Numbered from the stretch's first letter, positions 5,901 to 14,042 are shown. The stretch is 35,458 nt of DNA from Catajapyx aquilonaris (GCA_000934665.2 JYFJ02004029.1:1-35458), one strand, 5' to 3'. Program-made: numbers and translations. Notes: a model not told the origin generated them from the sequence alone.

Positions 5901-7121
5901 ATGGGCAAGTTGGTTGCTGTCTTTGTGGCCATGCTGGCATCTGCATGCTTCATGTGGCAAAGTGTCAACTCCCAGCTATGCATATCGTACAATTATAAAG
6001 AACCTACCACTTTTGATCAGAACACGGTAAGCCAGAGAGAAGTGAACCAGCAATGTATATAGAGTAAAATGAGGATGCATGAAGCGATGAAGGGTAAAGA
6101 CAACGTGCATGAACATGTCACTGAGAAATCGATTTATATCTATGGGGTATATTGTGTGCTGCTGACTGCAGGAGGCTGGCTGAAACAGCGAGTTAAACAA
6201 ACCTCGCAATGAACCGTATAATTATCATCCACAGATTACTGGAACGACCGGAACGAAATGGATAGCAGTGAATAGCACAGACTCGACTGGCAAGGTCACG
6301 TGTCACGAGATGACTATGACCACCAAATCCCCAACCTCTATGAAAGTATCGGCAAAACTGACTGCAGCTATTAAGTGAGTACAATCCTGGGCGTCGCGAA
6401 GGTCGAGTCATATCCGTATATCGGTGTAAATTTCGTGGACGCTGACTCCCATTCATATATACTAACCTGCTGATCCCAGAAACTGTAGAAGCGAACCTTA
6501 AAGCAAAGAAATGATCCAATGATATGCCAAGGAACTTGTATAAGTTTCCCTATACGTCCTTAGGAAACACCCTGTATAGAATTCCCAATCATTTGGTGAC
6601 AATCAGATTCAGCCAGATGCGATATGGATATGATCTGACTTGCAGTTCAATAAGGCGAAATGCAGTGTGAAATATTGTTCATATAAAATTAATGTCTACG
6701 CAAATTTCCAGCGGTAAATCTACTCCAGGTTGCTACAATATCGACCCTTTCACCCGCCTAACAAGTGTCACCAACAATGTTACGTACAATGGTACTGCTG
6801 TAGTTAAAACCTCATTCTTAGGCAGTTGCTCAGTTAATGCTGGATCAAAAAACCTTGCTGCCACAGTTTTAGTTGTCGGCTGTAACTGTTGTATCGCCGA
6901 ATTGAATGCGACCACAATCGGTAAGTGATACTAATCATGCACTAATATTGCTATGAACCTTTTGTCCTGTGCAGTAATGTAAGTTGGCTTTTAACCTTTC
7001 AGGCACTACGATCCAGTCCTTCACCAATGACACGGCGCTGGTGAATGGTAAGACCGACTGCCAGAAGAAGTGGGAGCAAATGGGCGGCGCCCAGATGTAT
7101 AAGATTCAGGGTTGCTCATAA
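5901..7121 (+). CDS. Secreted lipocalin-like (ApoD/triabin-like calycin) protein, tandem copy A, 197 aa; coding exons 5901-6026, 6235-6374, 6712-6920, 7003-7121; probable non-coding first exon ~5653-5728 spliced to 5857
   Basis: Seen: GT-AG introns of phase 0, 2, 1 give a 594-nt open frame MGKLVAVFVAMLASACFMWQSVNSQLCISYNYKEPTTFDQNT|ITGTTGTKWIAVNSTDSTGKVTCHEM...GCYNIDPFTR...VLVVGCNCCI...SFTNDTALVNGKTDCQKKWEQMGGAQMYKIQGCS*. It has a hydrophobic signal peptide and an AATAAA at 7287-7292, and the exon structure is the same as in copy B. Inference: N-terminal Cys + FD + GxxW motif, a Cys after the first strand, C-terminal helix then GC, the size, and a phase-0 intron just before the Trp motif all fit lipocalins. 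The gene model is more certain than the family call. Confidence 0.8.
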
Positions 7122-7540
7122 CCACCTTTTTAGAGGAATCATCTTCATGATTGTGGCCTCTGCCGGATTGCTGCGATAATTGCCATTACAATACATCTGG
7201 ATCTAATCTGAAACCGACTAATTGCGCAGCGAGATGTGATAATTTGATGCTAATTGTGAAAACTTGTAATGATCGGCCCAATTGATAATAAATACATATT
7301 GTACGTCACGTCAATATATCCGACAGCAATTATTCATTTCTGAGGGGGGGGGGGCAACAATACAGCAGAATTTTATGCCCTTCAATGAATATTGAGGCTG
7401 ATTCCACAAGAATGGGACAGAAAACGAAGGTTCGAATATGCAACAAACACATGTGCTGCATAGTGAAATACACATGTGATCAAATGACACATAAATGATC
7501 ATAATTATATGAACCACGAGCCAGACAATACTGTATTATA

Positions 7541-8090
7541 CAGGGTGTTTATTGTAACTCTGCAAAGACTTTCAGGGGTAATAGAGGGGACCAAGACAAG
7601 TATTTTTGACATAGGAACCTGTGTCCGGAAAAGCCATCCAGAGGGGGTTCATAGACAAGGAACGGGTGCGCTCAGACGTGTCACGCGAGAGGCGCTAGGA
7701 GAGCGGACTGTTTTGTATCAGTTGTTGCCAGGTTATGGCATATCGCGTCGTTGTAAGTAAGCAACAACGGGATATGCCATAACCTGGCAACAACAGAACC
7801 GCTGTTGACTATCCGCGCATCTCCTAGGAGGCGGACTTTCGTTGCTAGATGGCTCTGCTGTTGCCAGGTTATGACACATCGCATCGTTGGCTACTATCCG
7901 AGCACCATCTATCAACAAAACAGTCCCCTCGCCTAGCACCTCTCACCTGACGCGTCTGAGCGCACCCGTTCCTTGTCTATGAACCCCCTCTAGATGGCGT
8001 TTCCGGACACGGGTTCCTATGTCAAAAATACTTGTCTTGGTCCCCTCTATTACCCCTGAATGTCTTTGCAGAGTTACAATAAACACCCTG
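7541..8090. mobile_element. 550-bp foldback MITE, Tc1/mariner-superfamily type
   Basis: TA|CAGGGTGTTTATTGTAACTCTGCAAAGAC ... GTCTTTGCAGAGTTACAATAAACACCCTG|TA. The inverted arms are ~175 bp with few mismatches, the element is flanked by TA, and it is absent from the paralogous site in unit B (~14420-14440). Confidence 0.9.
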
Positions 8091-12601: not shown

Positions 12602-12677
12602 GATTGGTGATCTCCAATCCCTTTATGCAAATGAGTCTCTATATAACCCAGGGGAATCTCAGGGAAGGCACCATTCT
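12602..12677 (+). promoter_or_regulatory. Core promoter of lipocalin-like copy B: CCAAT pair, octamer 12625-12632, TATA 12640-12646, Inr-like 12671-12676
   Basis: Same motif arrangement as copy A; donor AA|GTAAGT at 12745/12746. Confidence 0.7.
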
Positions 12678-12891
12678 CAGGGGAGTATCTTCAGAGACTT
12701 CAATCCGCTTCAATCGCATCCAGGCAGTCTTCGTTCTACAAACAAGTAAGTATCTTATATTTGTAGGAATACTCTTGAAGGTGAGTACATAGAGTGCATG
12801 GTATTTATGACATCTATTTATGATGTTCATCCTATATTCTATTACAGGTTGTCATTTGCAAAGAGAGTTAATTCACTATAATCCGATCATC

Positions 12892-14042
12892 ATGGGCAAG
12901 TTGGTTGCTGTCTTTGTGGCCATGCTGTCGTCTGCATGCTTCATGTGGCAAAGTGTCAACTCCCAGCAATGCCCTATATCGTACGATTATAAATCACCTA
13001 CCCCTTTTGATCAGAACACGGTAAGCCAGAGAGAAGTGAAGGAGCAATGTATAGAGTAAAATGAGGATGCACGAAGGGTAAATATCGATATGGGGTATAC
13101 TGTATGCTGCTGACTGCTAATGAAGAGGCTGAAACAGCTAGTGAAACAAACCCGGAATGAACCTTAATAAATTATCATCCACAGGTAATTAAGACAATAT
13201 GGTACGCCATGAATAGCACAGACTCGGGTCGCTCGCTCACGTGTCACACATTGAATCTGACCAGCCTAACTCCAAACTCAATGAAAGCGAGTGGAAAACT
13301 GCTATAGTGAGTATAATCCTCGGCGTAGCAAAATTAATGTCGAGTCATATCCGTATATCGGTGAAAATCTCTCGGACGTTGCCTCCCACTCTACTAACCT
13401 GATCCCAGAAACTGCTGTAGAATGCGAATCATATAGCAATGAAATGATCCAATGATGCCAAGAAACTTGTATAAGTTTCCCCTACGTCCTTAGGAAACAC
13501 GCTATATAGAATTCCCCATCATTTTTGGTGACAATGAGATTCCGCCAGATGCCATATTGATATGAGCTGACTTGGAAATTCAATCCGAAATATTGTTCAT
13601 ATAAAATGTTTACAAAAATTTTCAGCAATTCGGAATATATCTGCTACGATATCAACCCTTTCACTCGCCAAACTACTGACACCGCCAATGTGACGTACAA
13701 CTCTCCCTCTGCTGCAGTTAAACGCTATAACTGCCAATTTCCTTTTGGAACAACAAGCGTTACTATGAAAATTCTCATTTGCGGCTGTGATTGTATGATC
13801 TGCAACCTATCTTTGCCAAGCTACAACAGTAAGTTTTCAGTGGTACTAATCACTTGCTATGAACCTTTTGTCCTGCTGTGCAGTAATGTTAGTTGGCTTT
13901 TAACCTTTCAGCCGAAGTTATCCATTCCTTCACCACTGACAAGACACAACTTAATGGCAAGACCGCGTGCCAGGTGCGGTGGGAGGAACATGGCCTCCCC
14001 CCGATGTATGGCATTTCCTCAGGTTGCCAACCACCTTTTTAG
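12892..14042 (+). CDS. Secreted lipocalin-like (ApoD/triabin-like calycin) protein, tandem copy B, 194 aa; coding exons 12892-13020, 13185-13306, 13626-13828, 13912-14042; probable non-coding first exon ~12673-12745 spliced to 12848
   Basis: Seen: 585-nt spliced open frame MGKLVAVFVAMLSSACFMWQSVNSQQCPISYDYKSPTPFDQNT|VIKTIWYAMNSTDSGRSLTCHTLNLT...ICYDINPFTR...ILICGCDCMIC...SFTTDKTQLNGKTACQVRWEEHGLPPMYGISSGCQPPF*, with intron phases 0, 2, 1 and AATAAA at 14200-14205. CP...FD...WY...C resembles the first conserved region of ApoD-like lipocalins. Confidence 0.82.

What the first reader, a model, noticed from the sequence alone, without database searches (positions are those of the whole stretch)
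5901..14042. Tandem secreted lipocalin-like genes whose mature exons diverged far faster than their introns
Seen: the promoters differ at 3 of 180 nt (5461-5640 vs 12481-12660), the signal-peptide codons at 2 of 76 nt, and introns and 3'UTR align at roughly 85-95% by eye. The mature proteins are only about 40-45% identical (third coding exon about 25 of 70 residues) and carry in-frame indels. Both frames are intact and 8 cysteines plus the FD/W core are retained. Established: conserved introns and signal peptide with hypervariable mature exons is typical of venom toxins such as snake PLA2s and conotoxins; lipocalins have been repeatedly recruited to saliva (triabins, nitrophorins, tick lipocalins), pheromone transport and chemical defence (millipede hydroxynitrile lyase). 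Inference: a young, lineage-specific effector or ligand-binding family under diversifying selection, probably co-expressed in one secretory tissue. This is the best candidate for an undescribed system in the window.
Basis: partly seen in the sequence, partly recalled or inferred. Interest (0 to 1): 0.85.

Follow-up and report, generated by a model that had tools for sequence, protein, structure and literature searches.

The report
Fast-diverging tandem secreted protein genes
Two neighbouring copies of an animal gene for a small secreted, cysteine-rich glycoprotein have nearly identical promoters, signal peptides and introns, but their mature-protein exons differ about four times more than the surrounding neutral DNA, a venom-toxin-like pattern of rapid protein diversification in a family with no detectable relatives.

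Summary
A tandem duplication (units about 3874-8791 and 9776-15106) carries two genes with four coding exons each, encoding 197 and 194 aa. The promoter cores differ at 3 of 180 nt and the first 76 coding nt at 2 of 76. Introns differ at 65 of 542 sites, all non-coding DNA at 267 of 2906, and coding exons 2-4 at 160 of 438 (Fisher P about 1e-19 or lower).

Spliced contigs of one public run show all six predicted GT..AG junctions, so both genes are transcribed and spliced as modelled. dN is about 0.52 and the intron K about 0.13, a ratio of 4.1 (2.9-5.7). Naive dS is also about 0.5, so dN/dS is about 0.9-1.3 and not shown to exceed 1. In securely aligned conserved blocks dS falls to about 0.25.

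Other samples carry variants of copy A. Of 14 listed exonic variants, 13 are nonsynonymous, and there are two in-frame indels. Copy B showed none.

No homologue was found. The lipocalin call is unverified: the intron phases (0,2,1) and the four-coding-exon layout fit, but sequence similarity to lipocalin profiles is no better than shuffled controls, and the spliced protein could not be folded here.

Best reading: diversifying selection on a lineage-restricted secreted binding or recognition protein. This is a new member of a known kind.

The parts
3874..8791 (+). Duplication unit A (gene A plus flanks; contains a later foldback-element insertion at 7502-8129)
   Evidence: Self-BLASTN; segment alignments
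9776..15106 (+). Duplication unit B (gene B plus flanks; extra repeat-rich insert about 10838-11764 compared with A)
   Evidence: Self-BLASTN; very high depth in the bins 10826-11439 in DNA runs
5461..5640 (+). Promoter core of gene A (CCAAT 5594-5598, TATATAA 5620-5626)
   Evidence: 3/180 mismatches to B; motif positions; function inferred
12481..12660 (+). Promoter core of gene B (CCAAT 12614-12618, TATATAA 12640-12646)
   Evidence: function inferred
5729..5857 (+). Predicted 5'UTR intron of gene A (GT..AG), after a non-coding first exon ending at 5728. Not confirmed by any listed joint.
   Evidence: Sequence; 8/101 mismatches plus 4 indel events to B
12746..12848 (+). Predicted 5'UTR intron of gene B (GT..AG). 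Not confirmed by any listed joint.
5901..6026 (+). Gene A coding exon 1: signal peptide (about 24 aa, inferred) plus 18 mature residues; ends in phase 0
   Evidence: joint 6025/6026 to 6234/6235 in run X5
6235..6374 (+). Gene A coding exon 2 (hypervariable; ends in phase 2)
   Evidence: joints in X5
6712..6920 (+). Gene A coding exon 3 (hypervariable; ends in phase 1)
   Evidence: joints 6374>6712 and 6919/6920>7002/7003 in X5
7003..7121 (+). Gene A coding exon 4, ending at the stop codon TAA
7122..7308 (+). Gene A 3'UTR (AATAAA 7287-7292; the X5 contig ends at 7308)
12892..13020 (+). Gene B coding exon 1 (signal peptide plus 19 mature residues)
   Evidence: joint 13019/13020>13184/13185 in X5
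13185..13306 (+). Gene B coding exon 2
   Evidence: joint 13306>13626
13626..13828 (+). Gene B coding exon 3
   Evidence: joint 13828>13912
13912..14042 (+). Gene B coding exon 4, ending at the stop codon TAG (4 codons longer than A; in A the same letters remain as 3'UTR)
14043..14225 (+). Gene B 3'UTR (AATAAA 14200-14205; the 3' end is approximate)
   Evidence: the X5 contig reaches 14152

Best explanation
A recent tandem duplication (neutral divergence about 0.10-0.13 substitutions per site) produced two co-regulated genes. Each encodes a secreted, N-glycosylated protein of about 170 mature residues with eight conserved cysteines. The promoter core, 5'UTR exons and signal peptide are held nearly identical by purifying selection. 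Introns, 3'UTR and flanks drift at the neutral rate. Coding exons 2-4, which encode the mature protein, have collected amino-acid replacements and in-frame indels about four times faster than neutral, while the cysteine scaffold and a few short blocks (NSTDS, TCH, SMK, PFTR, NVTYN, SFT, NGKT) are kept. The most likely cause is diversifying positive selection on the exposed or ligand-contacting residues of an extracellular binding, recognition or defence protein. The process is still running: copy A is polymorphic in other samples, almost only at nonsynonymous sites and by in-frame indels. Shown here: the duplication, the gene models, splicing and transcription of both copies, the exon/non-coding contrast, and the polymorphism. 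Inferred: secretion, selection as the cause, and the binding or recognition role. The fold may be a calycin/lipocalin barrel, at odds of about 50%.
For: The contrast between exons and non-coding DNA is large and sharp. Exons 2-4 differ at 160/438 sites, introns at 65/542 and all non-coding DNA at 267/2906, and the change falls at the splice sites. Bootstrap values are dN 0.52 (0.42-0.66), intron K 0.13 (0.10-0.17) and dN/K_intron 4.1 (2.9-5.7). Neutral drift or relaxed constraint cannot carry dN above the neutral rate.

The UTRs and exon 1 lie on the same transcript and are 94-98% identical, so the acceleration is confined to the mature-protein code. Introns and flanks over about 3 kb are evenly 9-13% diverged. 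Identical runs of 40 nt or more occur only between 5063 and 5936.

Eight cysteines align. Seven of the eight use the same codon in both copies.

Both reading frames are intact. All six introns appear as GT..AG joints in contigs of run X5, which covers no intron or intergenic DNA.

Of the 14 variant letters listed in the coding exons of A, 13 are nonsynonymous. There is also an in-frame 6-nt deletion at 7044 (X1) and an alternative start of exon 2 that is 3 nt longer (X5). Ten of the 14 variants carry the copy-B state, but they are scattered among unchanged A/B differences and do not form tracts. In codons 34, 73, 151, 170 and 181 the variant codon is a one-step intermediate between the A and B codons.

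Synonymous divergence in runs of 2 or more identical residues is 5 differences over 23.7 sites (pS 0.21). At isolated identical residues it is 12 over 16.2 (pS 0.74). The whole-exon dS is therefore inflated by saturated or uncertain positions.
Against: The classical test is not passed. dN/dS is 0.91 (0.59-1.36) by NG86 bootstrap and 0.9-1.3 across four methods.

Synonymous sites in the exons look more diverged than introns. Four-fold sites differ at 9/26 against 65/542 in introns (P=0.003). Even in blocks of 3 or more identical residues pS is 5/17.3 (P=0.049). Selection on amino acids alone does not predict this, and an older duplication would.

In the promoter-to-signal-peptide region the two copies are 97-99% identical. 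At all three promoter differences the copy-A variants in other samples carry the B state, so some A/B exchange or shared polymorphism exists at the 5' end.

Only two sequences and fragments of variants were available. There is no outgroup and no orthologue. The variant contigs could come from a third, near-identical paralogue rather than from alleles. Only 40 of 72 variant rows were shown. Tissue and function are unknown.
Confidence: 0.6

Rival explanations
1. The duplication is old (true dS about 0.5). The introns, UTRs and flanks look young because repeated short gene conversions between the copies homogenise the non-coding DNA. The mature-coding exons stay apart as 'islands of divergence', because selection removes converted alleles or because their divergence blocks heteroduplex formation. 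The protein would still be under diversifying or divergent selection, but there would be no rate acceleration.
For: Whole-exon dS of 0.45-0.59 is as high as dN. Four-fold sites differ at 9/26 against 65/542 in introns, P=0.003. The 5' 500 bp are 97-99% identical, with runs of 83, 72 and 69 identical nt. At all three promoter differences the copy-A variants carry the B state.
Against: All non-coding segments have about the same divergence: flanks 9.4%, introns 12%, 3'UTR 7%. That looks like one event that would also have reset the exons. There are no identical runs of 40 nt or more outside 5063-5936. The 82-nt intron 3 is 96% identical although exons of only about 62-66% identity flank it on both sides, so a very short tract ending at both splice sites would be needed. 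The 5'UTR intron, inside the highly identical 5' region, is at the neutral level (8/101 mismatches plus indels), which fits constraint on the functional elements better than one conversion tract. The B-like variant letters in the exons of A are not contiguous. pS in secure blocks is 0.21, not 0.41.
Confidence: 0.2
2. A mutational process aimed at the exons raises both synonymous and nonsynonymous change in the mature-coding exons. It could be local hypermutation, multi-nucleotide mutation, or replacement of short segments as proposed for snake toxins under the name ASSET. Selection would then only filter the result.
For: dS is raised together with dN. Runs of consecutive mismatches reach 10 nt in the exons. 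There are several in-frame indels between the copies and among the variants. Snake-toxin work describes segment switches restricted to exons, with an unknown mechanism (PMC2711939, abstract and passages).
Against: The UTRs and exon 1 of the same transcript, and the introns of the same transcription unit, are not affected. The transition:transversion ratio does not differ between exons (62:98) and non-coding DNA (124:143), P=0.13. Variant codons are single-step intermediates, as expected from ordinary point mutation. 13 of 14 exonic variants are nonsynonymous, which is a signature of selection and not of mutation.
Confidence: 0.1
3. One copy is redundant and is decaying under relaxed constraint, on its way to becoming a pseudogene.
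For: dN/dS is near 1. Copy A carries an extra, polymorphic cysteine (C149W variant) and an earlier stop codon than B.
Against: Neutral decay cannot exceed the neutral rate, yet dN is about 4 times the intron K. Both frames are intact, with all splice sites canonical. Both are spliced and present at similar contig depth in X5. The 8 cysteines and several motif blocks are retained. All indels are in frame.
Confidence: 0.03

Closest known systems
Snake venom toxin gene families (PLA2 isozymes, three-finger toxins): gene duplication followed by accelerated change of the protein-coding regions
   Same: Duplicated genes for secreted, disulfide-rich proteins. The non-coding parts and the signal peptide are much more conserved than the mature-coding exons, nonsynonymous change is at least as frequent as synonymous, and the cysteine scaffold is kept. 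The general statement was seen in PMC2711939 (abstract and passages). The original PLA2 intron/exon papers (Nakashima et al., 1990s) are recalled and were not read here. PMC6062510 was seen only in a search listing.
   Different: No evidence here of a venom or of any gland. The protein is different and has no detectable relatives. Only two copies are visible in this window. The host is an unidentified animal whose next gene is a rhodopsin-type receptor.
Conopeptide precursors (conserved signal sequence, hypervariable mature toxin, conserved cysteine codons)
   Same: Signal peptide almost invariant (2/76 nt). The mature part is hypervariable, with raised synonymous change as well. Cysteine codons are conserved (7 of 8 identical). 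The conopeptide facts are recalled; no paper was read here.
   Different: The mature protein here is about 170 residues long and glycosylated, not a short peptide. There is no propeptide. The variable part is spread over three exons.
Apolipoprotein D / Lazarillo-type lipocalins and expanded secreted lipocalin families (tick and triatomine salivary lipocalins, rodent urinary proteins)
   Same: Size of the mature protein. Four coding exons behind a 5'UTR intron, as in ApoD (PMC7304576, passages). Intron phases 0,2,1, equal to the first three of the lipocalin pattern 0,2,1,1,1 (PMC3184775, passage). An F-D...W-[IY]-A motif straddles intron 1 at the place where lipocalins have their first conserved region. 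The cysteine placement (near the N-terminus, a C-x-C late in the chain, and near the C-terminus) resembles ApoD from recall only.
   Different: No Pfam match on any exon-encoded piece. No lipocalin among the per-exon PDB profile hits. The profile comparison with 78 bacterial lipocalins is no better than shuffles. There is no strict G-x-W and no T-D-Y motif. The fold was not tested.
Hypervariable, polymorphic secreted recognition or immune proteins of invertebrates (for example sea urchin 185/333, amphioxus VCBPs, gamete-recognition proteins)
   Same: High allelic diversity made of nonsynonymous changes and in-frame indels in a secreted protein encoded by clustered paralogues. The named comparison systems are recalled and were not read here.
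   Different: No sequence or domain relationship. The function here is untested. Only copy A showed variants in the three runs laid.

Membership tests
Lipocalin / calycin | Eight-stranded antiparallel beta-barrel with a C-terminal helix | tested here: inconclusive
   The spliced protein is not a contiguous translation of the window, so it could not be given to the fold tools. Exon 3 alone (69 aa, 2-row alignment) gave mean pLDDT 34.3, with no usable structure.
Lipocalin / calycin | Significant sequence or profile match to lipocalin families (Pfam PF00061 / PF08212) | tested here: not met
   Pfam found no family at E up to 1 for the five exon-encoded pieces scanned, exons 1-3 of A and exons 2-3 of B. 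hhalign of the spliced A+B against Enterobacteriaceae Blc gave Prob 1.1, P 0.05. Against 78 bacterial lipocalins it gave Prob 2.1, P 0.023, partly from the signal peptides. For the mature part alone the score was 10.4, and 145 of 200 column shuffles reached it; the reversed sequence scored 10.8. No profile of eukaryotic lipocalins could be built here, so a distant relationship is not excluded.
Lipocalin / calycin | First conserved region, G-x-W on strand A (motif recalled) | tested here: inconclusive
   W is conserved in both copies and is followed by [IY]-A-[VM]. F-D lies 10-13 residues upstream. Copy A reads G-T-K-W (G-x-x-W) and copy B reads K-T-I-W, without the G. This stretch is the best local alignment to the bacterial profile, but it is not significant.
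Lipocalin / calycin | Second and third conserved regions (T-D-Y and a conserved R; motifs recalled) | tested here: not met
   Neither protein contains T-D-Y (sequences). No alignment was reliable enough to place the R.
Lipocalin / calycin | Conserved gene structure: intron phases 0,2,1(,1,1); ApoD type with four coding exons behind a 5'UTR intron | tested here: met
   The coding exons are 126/140/209/119 nt in A and 129/122/203/131 nt in B. This gives phases 0,2,1 in both, confirmed by spliced contigs. The pattern is quoted from PMC3184775, and the four ApoD coding exons from PMC7304576. The 5'UTR intron is predicted and not confirmed.
Accelerated-evolution secreted gene pairs (snake-toxin type pattern) | Mature-coding exons more diverged than introns, UTRs and signal peptide | tested here: met
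   160/438 against 65/542 and 267/2906 mismatches. Signal peptide region 2/76.
Accelerated-evolution secreted gene pairs (snake-toxin type pattern) | Nonsynonymous rate equal to or above the synonymous rate | tested here: inconclusive
   dN/dS is 0.91-1.30 depending on method, with a bootstrap interval of 0.59-1.36. It is about 2 if dS is taken from secure conserved blocks. dN/K_intron is 4.1 (2.9-5.7).
Accelerated-evolution secreted gene pairs (snake-toxin type pattern) | Conserved cysteine framework | tested here: met
   Eight aligned cysteines; copy A has one extra and copy B two extra.
Accelerated-evolution secreted gene pairs (snake-toxin type pattern) | Expression in a dedicated secretory or venom tissue | not testable with these tools
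   Both mRNAs appear in one run of unrecorded kind and tissue. No run on record as RNA was listed.

The most novel reading that the evidence does not exclude
The pair belongs to an undescribed, lineage-restricted family of hypervariable secreted proteins, with no detectable relative among 1.84 billion representative proteins when searched by its longest exon. It may be a very divergent calycin. It would act as a polymorphic recognition or defence molecule (self/non-self, gamete, pathogen or chemical-signal binding). The exon-confined divergence includes synonymous sites and in-frame indels and stops at the splice sites and the stop codon. It would then reflect a diversification mechanism beyond ordinary point mutation plus selection.
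Probability: 0.15. Interest if true: 0.8.

Novelty: new member of a known kind. Interest (0 to 1): 0.5.

Why it matters
This is a very clean natural experiment. Within 5 kb, three rate classes lie side by side: constrained regulatory and targeting elements at 1-2% divergence, neutral DNA at 9-13%, and mature-protein code at 36%. It therefore gives an internal neutral yardstick for measuring positive selection on a secreted protein. Copy A also appears to be still diversifying within the species. The unexplained rise at synonymous sites is the same puzzle that remains open for snake toxins and conopeptides, and here it could be addressed in a two-gene system. The protein has no recognisable relatives, so its structure and ligand would be new information. 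If it is a lipocalin, it would be one of the most divergent known.

Tried and rejected
1. Homologue searches with single exons found nothing usable.
- Exon 3 of A against longer proteins: none of 121 candidates scored.
- Exon 3 of B against longer proteins: none of 65 candidates scored.
- The full HMMER scan with the A+B exon-3 profile gave 2 hits at E about 4.5e-4, in proteins of 1488 and 5306 aa with 6 and 31 matched stretches. I take these to be repetitive, spurious matches.
- The ESM Atlas gave no usable hit.

2. PDB profile searches per exon gave only weak, unrelated hits: glutamine cyclotransferase E 0.86; a 34k2 salivary protein E 0.055; ENPP5 E 0.26; a Mur ligase E 1.1.

3. AlphaFold on exon 3 alone gave pLDDT 34 and was useless.

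It returned only relatives of 75% identity or more. A wider bacterial set was then taken from genome contigs. The results are given under the membership test.

5. No whole genome is held for this window, so further paralogues could not be sought. TBLASTN of both proteins against the window found no third copy.

6. No RNA holder was listed by the run search. The expression evidence rests on the behaviour of run X5 when laid.

7. Earlier findings of this scan held nothing relevant.

8. Pfam on 11 other long open frames of the window found nothing, and Rfam found nothing.

9. Gene conversion from B as the source of the copy-A variants was rejected, because the B-like letters are interspersed with unchanged A/B differences.

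10. A Blc-wide global hhalign gave a meaningless alignment.

11. PMC8420045 (passages) added nothing on intron phases.

12. No complex prediction was sent, because it would give scores and not a fold.
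Full report
WHAT IS THERE

The window is animal DNA of about 40% G+C. Its only recognisable other gene is a rhodopsin-type 7TM receptor on the minus strand (Pfam 7tm_1, E 1.7e-25 and 8e-14). Self-comparison shows a direct tandem duplication. Unit A runs from about 3874 to 8791 and unit B from about 9776 to 15106, with start-to-start spacing of 6.3-7.0 kb. 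The spacing varies because unit A holds a foldback element at 7502-8129 and unit B holds repeat-rich extra DNA.

Each unit carries one gene with a CCAAT box and a TATATAA box. Each gene has a predicted non-coding first exon, a predicted 5'UTR intron and four coding exons with canonical GT..AG borders. Gene A is 5901-6026, 6235-6374, 6712-6920, 7003-7121 (197 aa). Gene B is 12892-13020, 13185-13306, 13626-13828, 13912-14042 (194 aa). The outer ends are the coordinates of the finding. TBLASTN of both proteins against the window finds no third copy.

THE GENES ARE REAL AND BOTH ARE TRANSCRIBED

Five public runs hold the stretch. Three of them were laid on it.
- Run X5 is of unrecorded kind. It covers only exonic bins and no intergenic DNA.
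- Its contigs contain all six predicted coding introns as GT..AG joints: 208, 337 and 82 nt skipped in A, and 164, 319 and 83 nt in B.
- One 649-nt contig joins exons 1-4 and the 3'UTR of B without a single difference.
- The two DNA runs X1 and X2, which are one sample, show none of these joints.

I infer that X5 is cDNA, and that both genes are transcribed and spliced as modelled. No listed joint confirms the 5'UTR intron. The tissue is unknown.

- Promoter cores: 3/180 mismatches. The first 76 coding nt: 2/76.
- Segment identities: 5'UTR exons 98%; coding exon 1 94%; introns 85%, 88% and 96% (K2P 0.17, 0.135, 0.04); 3'UTR 93%; flanks 90-92%; coding exons 2, 3 and 4 at 64%, 62% and 66% (K2P 0.49, 0.53, 0.46).
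- Pooled: exons 2-4, 160/438; introns 65/542 (Fisher P 9e-20); flanks 147/1560; all non-coding 267/2906 (P 1.5e-44).
- The change is abrupt at the splice sites. The last 30 nt of intron 3 have 1 differing column and the first 30 nt of exon 4 have 9. Over five junctions the intron sides have 36/150 differing columns and the exon sides 84/150.
- The divergence also ends at the stop codon. Gene A stops four codons earlier than B, and the letters that still code in B are kept unchanged in A as 3'UTR.
- Proteins: 99/188 identical overall and 76/164 in the mature part. Exon 3 is 35% identical. Eight cysteines align, and there are several in-frame indels.

THREE RATE CLASSES SIDE BY SIDE

Promoter core, 5'UTR exons and signal peptide differ by 1-2%. 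The 5'UTR intron lies between these elements and is at the neutral level (8/101 mismatches plus four indel events). That fits constraint on the functional elements better than one conversion tract. Introns, 3'UTR and about 1.6 kb of flanks are evenly 7-13% diverged. Identical runs of 40 nt or more occur only between 5063 and 5936. The mature-protein code is 36% diverged.

SELECTION TESTS

- For exons 2-4 (146 aligned codons), dN is 0.54-0.60 and dS 0.45-0.59, so dN/dS is 0.91-1.30 depending on method.
- Bootstrap values: dN 0.52 (0.42-0.66), dS 0.58 (0.40-0.85), intron K 0.13 (0.10-0.17), dN/dS 0.91 (0.59-1.36), dN/K_intron 4.1 (2.9-5.7).
- Dropping codons within three positions of a gap gives dN 0.48 and dS 0.44.

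The classical criterion dN/dS above 1 is therefore not met. However, the nonsynonymous rate is about four times the rate of the adjacent non-coding DNA, which relaxed constraint cannot produce.

The raised dS is the main open point.
- It is partly an artefact. At identical residues that stand alone in variable stretches, pS is 12/16.2 = 0.74, which is saturation and suggests chance identity or uncertain alignment.
- In runs of two or more identical residues pS is 5/23.7 = 0.21. This is not different from introns (P 0.2), and it is below the whole-exon 0.41 (P 0.035).
- It is not fully explained. Four-fold sites differ at 9/26 (P 0.003 against introns), and blocks of three or more identical residues give 5/17.3 (P 0.049).
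- The transition:transversion ratio does not differ between exons and non-coding DNA (62:98 against 124:143, P 0.13), and 7 of the 8 conserved cysteine codons are identical.

POLYMORPHISM

In the laid runs copy B showed no difference. This holds for the 1142-nt contigs in X1 and X2 and the 649-nt contig in X5. X1 and X2 may be the sample the window was assembled from.

Copy A showed many differences.
- 14 variant letters were listed inside its coding exons, and 13 of them are nonsynonymous.
- An in-frame 6-nt deletion lies at 7044 in X1.
- In X5 a second form of the start of exon 2 is 3 nt longer and changes several residues. It is present beside the reference form at similar contig depth.
- In the X1 contig 6666-7244, all six differing letters were listed. 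Five are exonic and nonsynonymous, and one is intronic.
- Ten of the 14 exonic variants carry the letter that copy B has at the aligned site. They are scattered among A/B differences that do not vary, so they are not conversion tracts.
- In codons 34, 73, 151, 170 and 181 the variant codon is a single-step intermediate between the A and B codons.

This shows replacement changes accumulating one step at a time in copy A. Three cautions apply. One search listed only 40 of 72 variant rows. Contigs cannot be phased. The variants could belong to a third, near-identical paralogue.

At all three promoter differences the copy-A variants carry the B state. The 5' end is therefore either exchanged between the copies or polymorphic.

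WHAT THE PROTEIN IS

The N-terminus has the form of a signal peptide, with cleavage likely after residue 24. This is an inference; no predictor was run. The mature proteins are 173 and 170 residues long. They have five (A) and four (B) N-x-S/T sequons, of which two are shared, and 8 shared cysteines.

No relative was found:
- Pfam gave no hit on the exon pieces scanned.
- The two word-index searches gave none.
- A full HMMER scan of 1.84 billion representatives with the exon-3 profile gave only two hits that look repetitive and spurious.
- The ESM Atlas and the PDB gave nothing useful.

All these searches used single exons, which limits their reach.

THE LIPOCALIN CALL

For it:
- The size fits.
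- The intron phases 0,2,1 in both genes equal the first three of the lipocalin pattern 0,2,1,1,1 quoted in PMC3184775 (passage).
- The four coding exons behind a 5'UTR intron match ApoD (PMC7304576, passages).
- An F-D...W-[IY]-A stretch straddles intron 1.

Against it, or not shown:
- A profile of 78 bacterial lipocalins aligned this very stretch to its N-F-D...G-x-W-Y-E-I-A region. For the mature proteins the score was 10.4, and 145 of 200 column shuffles reached it.
- The P of 0.023 for the full sequences came partly from the signal peptides.
- There is no strict G-x-W and no T-D-Y motif.
- Exon 3 alone folded at pLDDT 34.
- The whole spliced protein could not be handed to the fold or family tools.

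My recollection that the cysteine placement resembles ApoD is untested. I put the calycin fold at about even odds.

INTERPRETATION

The best reading is a recent tandem duplication followed by diversifying selection on the mature part of a secreted binding, recognition or defence protein (confidence 0.6). Copy A is still diversifying, and shared regulation is preserved.

The main rival keeps the selection but makes the duplication old, with non-coding DNA homogenised by short conversions (0.2). It explains the high dS. It fits poorly with three things: the even non-coding divergence, the 96% identical 82-nt intron between two exons of about 62-66% identity, and the splice-site-sharp borders.

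An exon-aimed mutational process (0.1) is disfavoured by the untouched UTRs and exon 1 of the same transcript and by the single-step intermediates. Decay of a redundant copy (0.03) cannot exceed the neutral rate.

COMPARISON AND NOVELTY

The pattern is the one described for snake venom toxin genes: duplication followed by accelerated change in the protein-coding regions relative to the non-coding regions (PMC2711939, abstract and passages). From recall, the same holds for conopeptides. It is therefore a new member of a known kind. What is new is the protein family, which has no detectable relatives. The quality of the internal neutral control and the apparent ongoing polymorphism of one copy add to its value. 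I made no search for the family itself in the literature, because neither a name nor the organism is known. My paper searches were about lipocalin gene structure and accelerated evolution, and none turned up a paper on this family.

Noticed in passing
window 7502-8129: Foldback (MITE-like) element with 215-nt inverted arms, 89% complementary, inserted just downstream of gene A and absent from unit B. Depth in the DNA runs is in the tens of thousands, so it is a very high-copy repeat. A joint 7535>8095 in X1 and X2 shows a haplotype without it, so the insertion is polymorphic.
   Followed up: partly
window 30267-30680 and 31467-31889, minus strand: Two exons of a rhodopsin-family 7TM receptor gene (Pfam 7tm_1, E 8e-14 and 1.7e-25). 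The nearest ESM Atlas clusters are animal receptors (Chordata or Arthropoda commonest). AT-rich minisatellites (periods 25 and 37 nt) lie in the intron between the exons at 30745-31073.
   Followed up: partly
window 3531-3672, 5009-5121, 11983-12097: A roughly 100-nt element upstream of both genes is also present about 1.5 kb further upstream, at 88% identity. There it forms a 28-nt tandem repeat (3586-3664). It may be a remnant of an older unit or a small mobile repeat.
   Followed up: no
window 9291-9904 and 10826-11439: These bins have depths in the thousands in the DNA runs. They are repeated elements that account for most of the unit-B-specific DNA between the two genes.
   Followed up: no
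window 9775>12366: A joint in X1 and X2 skips 2590 nt, with six other letters between the sides. It may be a shorter haplotype upstream of gene B, but the shorter side has only 21 letters, so the evidence is weak.
   Followed up: no
window 5455-5867: In the DNA sample, copy A carries the copy-B letter at all three promoter-core differences and at 5867 in the 5'UTR. The few A/B differences at the 5' end are therefore polymorphic or exchanged between the copies.
   Followed up: partly
window 25299-25536: AT-rich tandem repeats (periods 30, 45 and 50 nt) in otherwise unannotated DNA.
   Followed up: no
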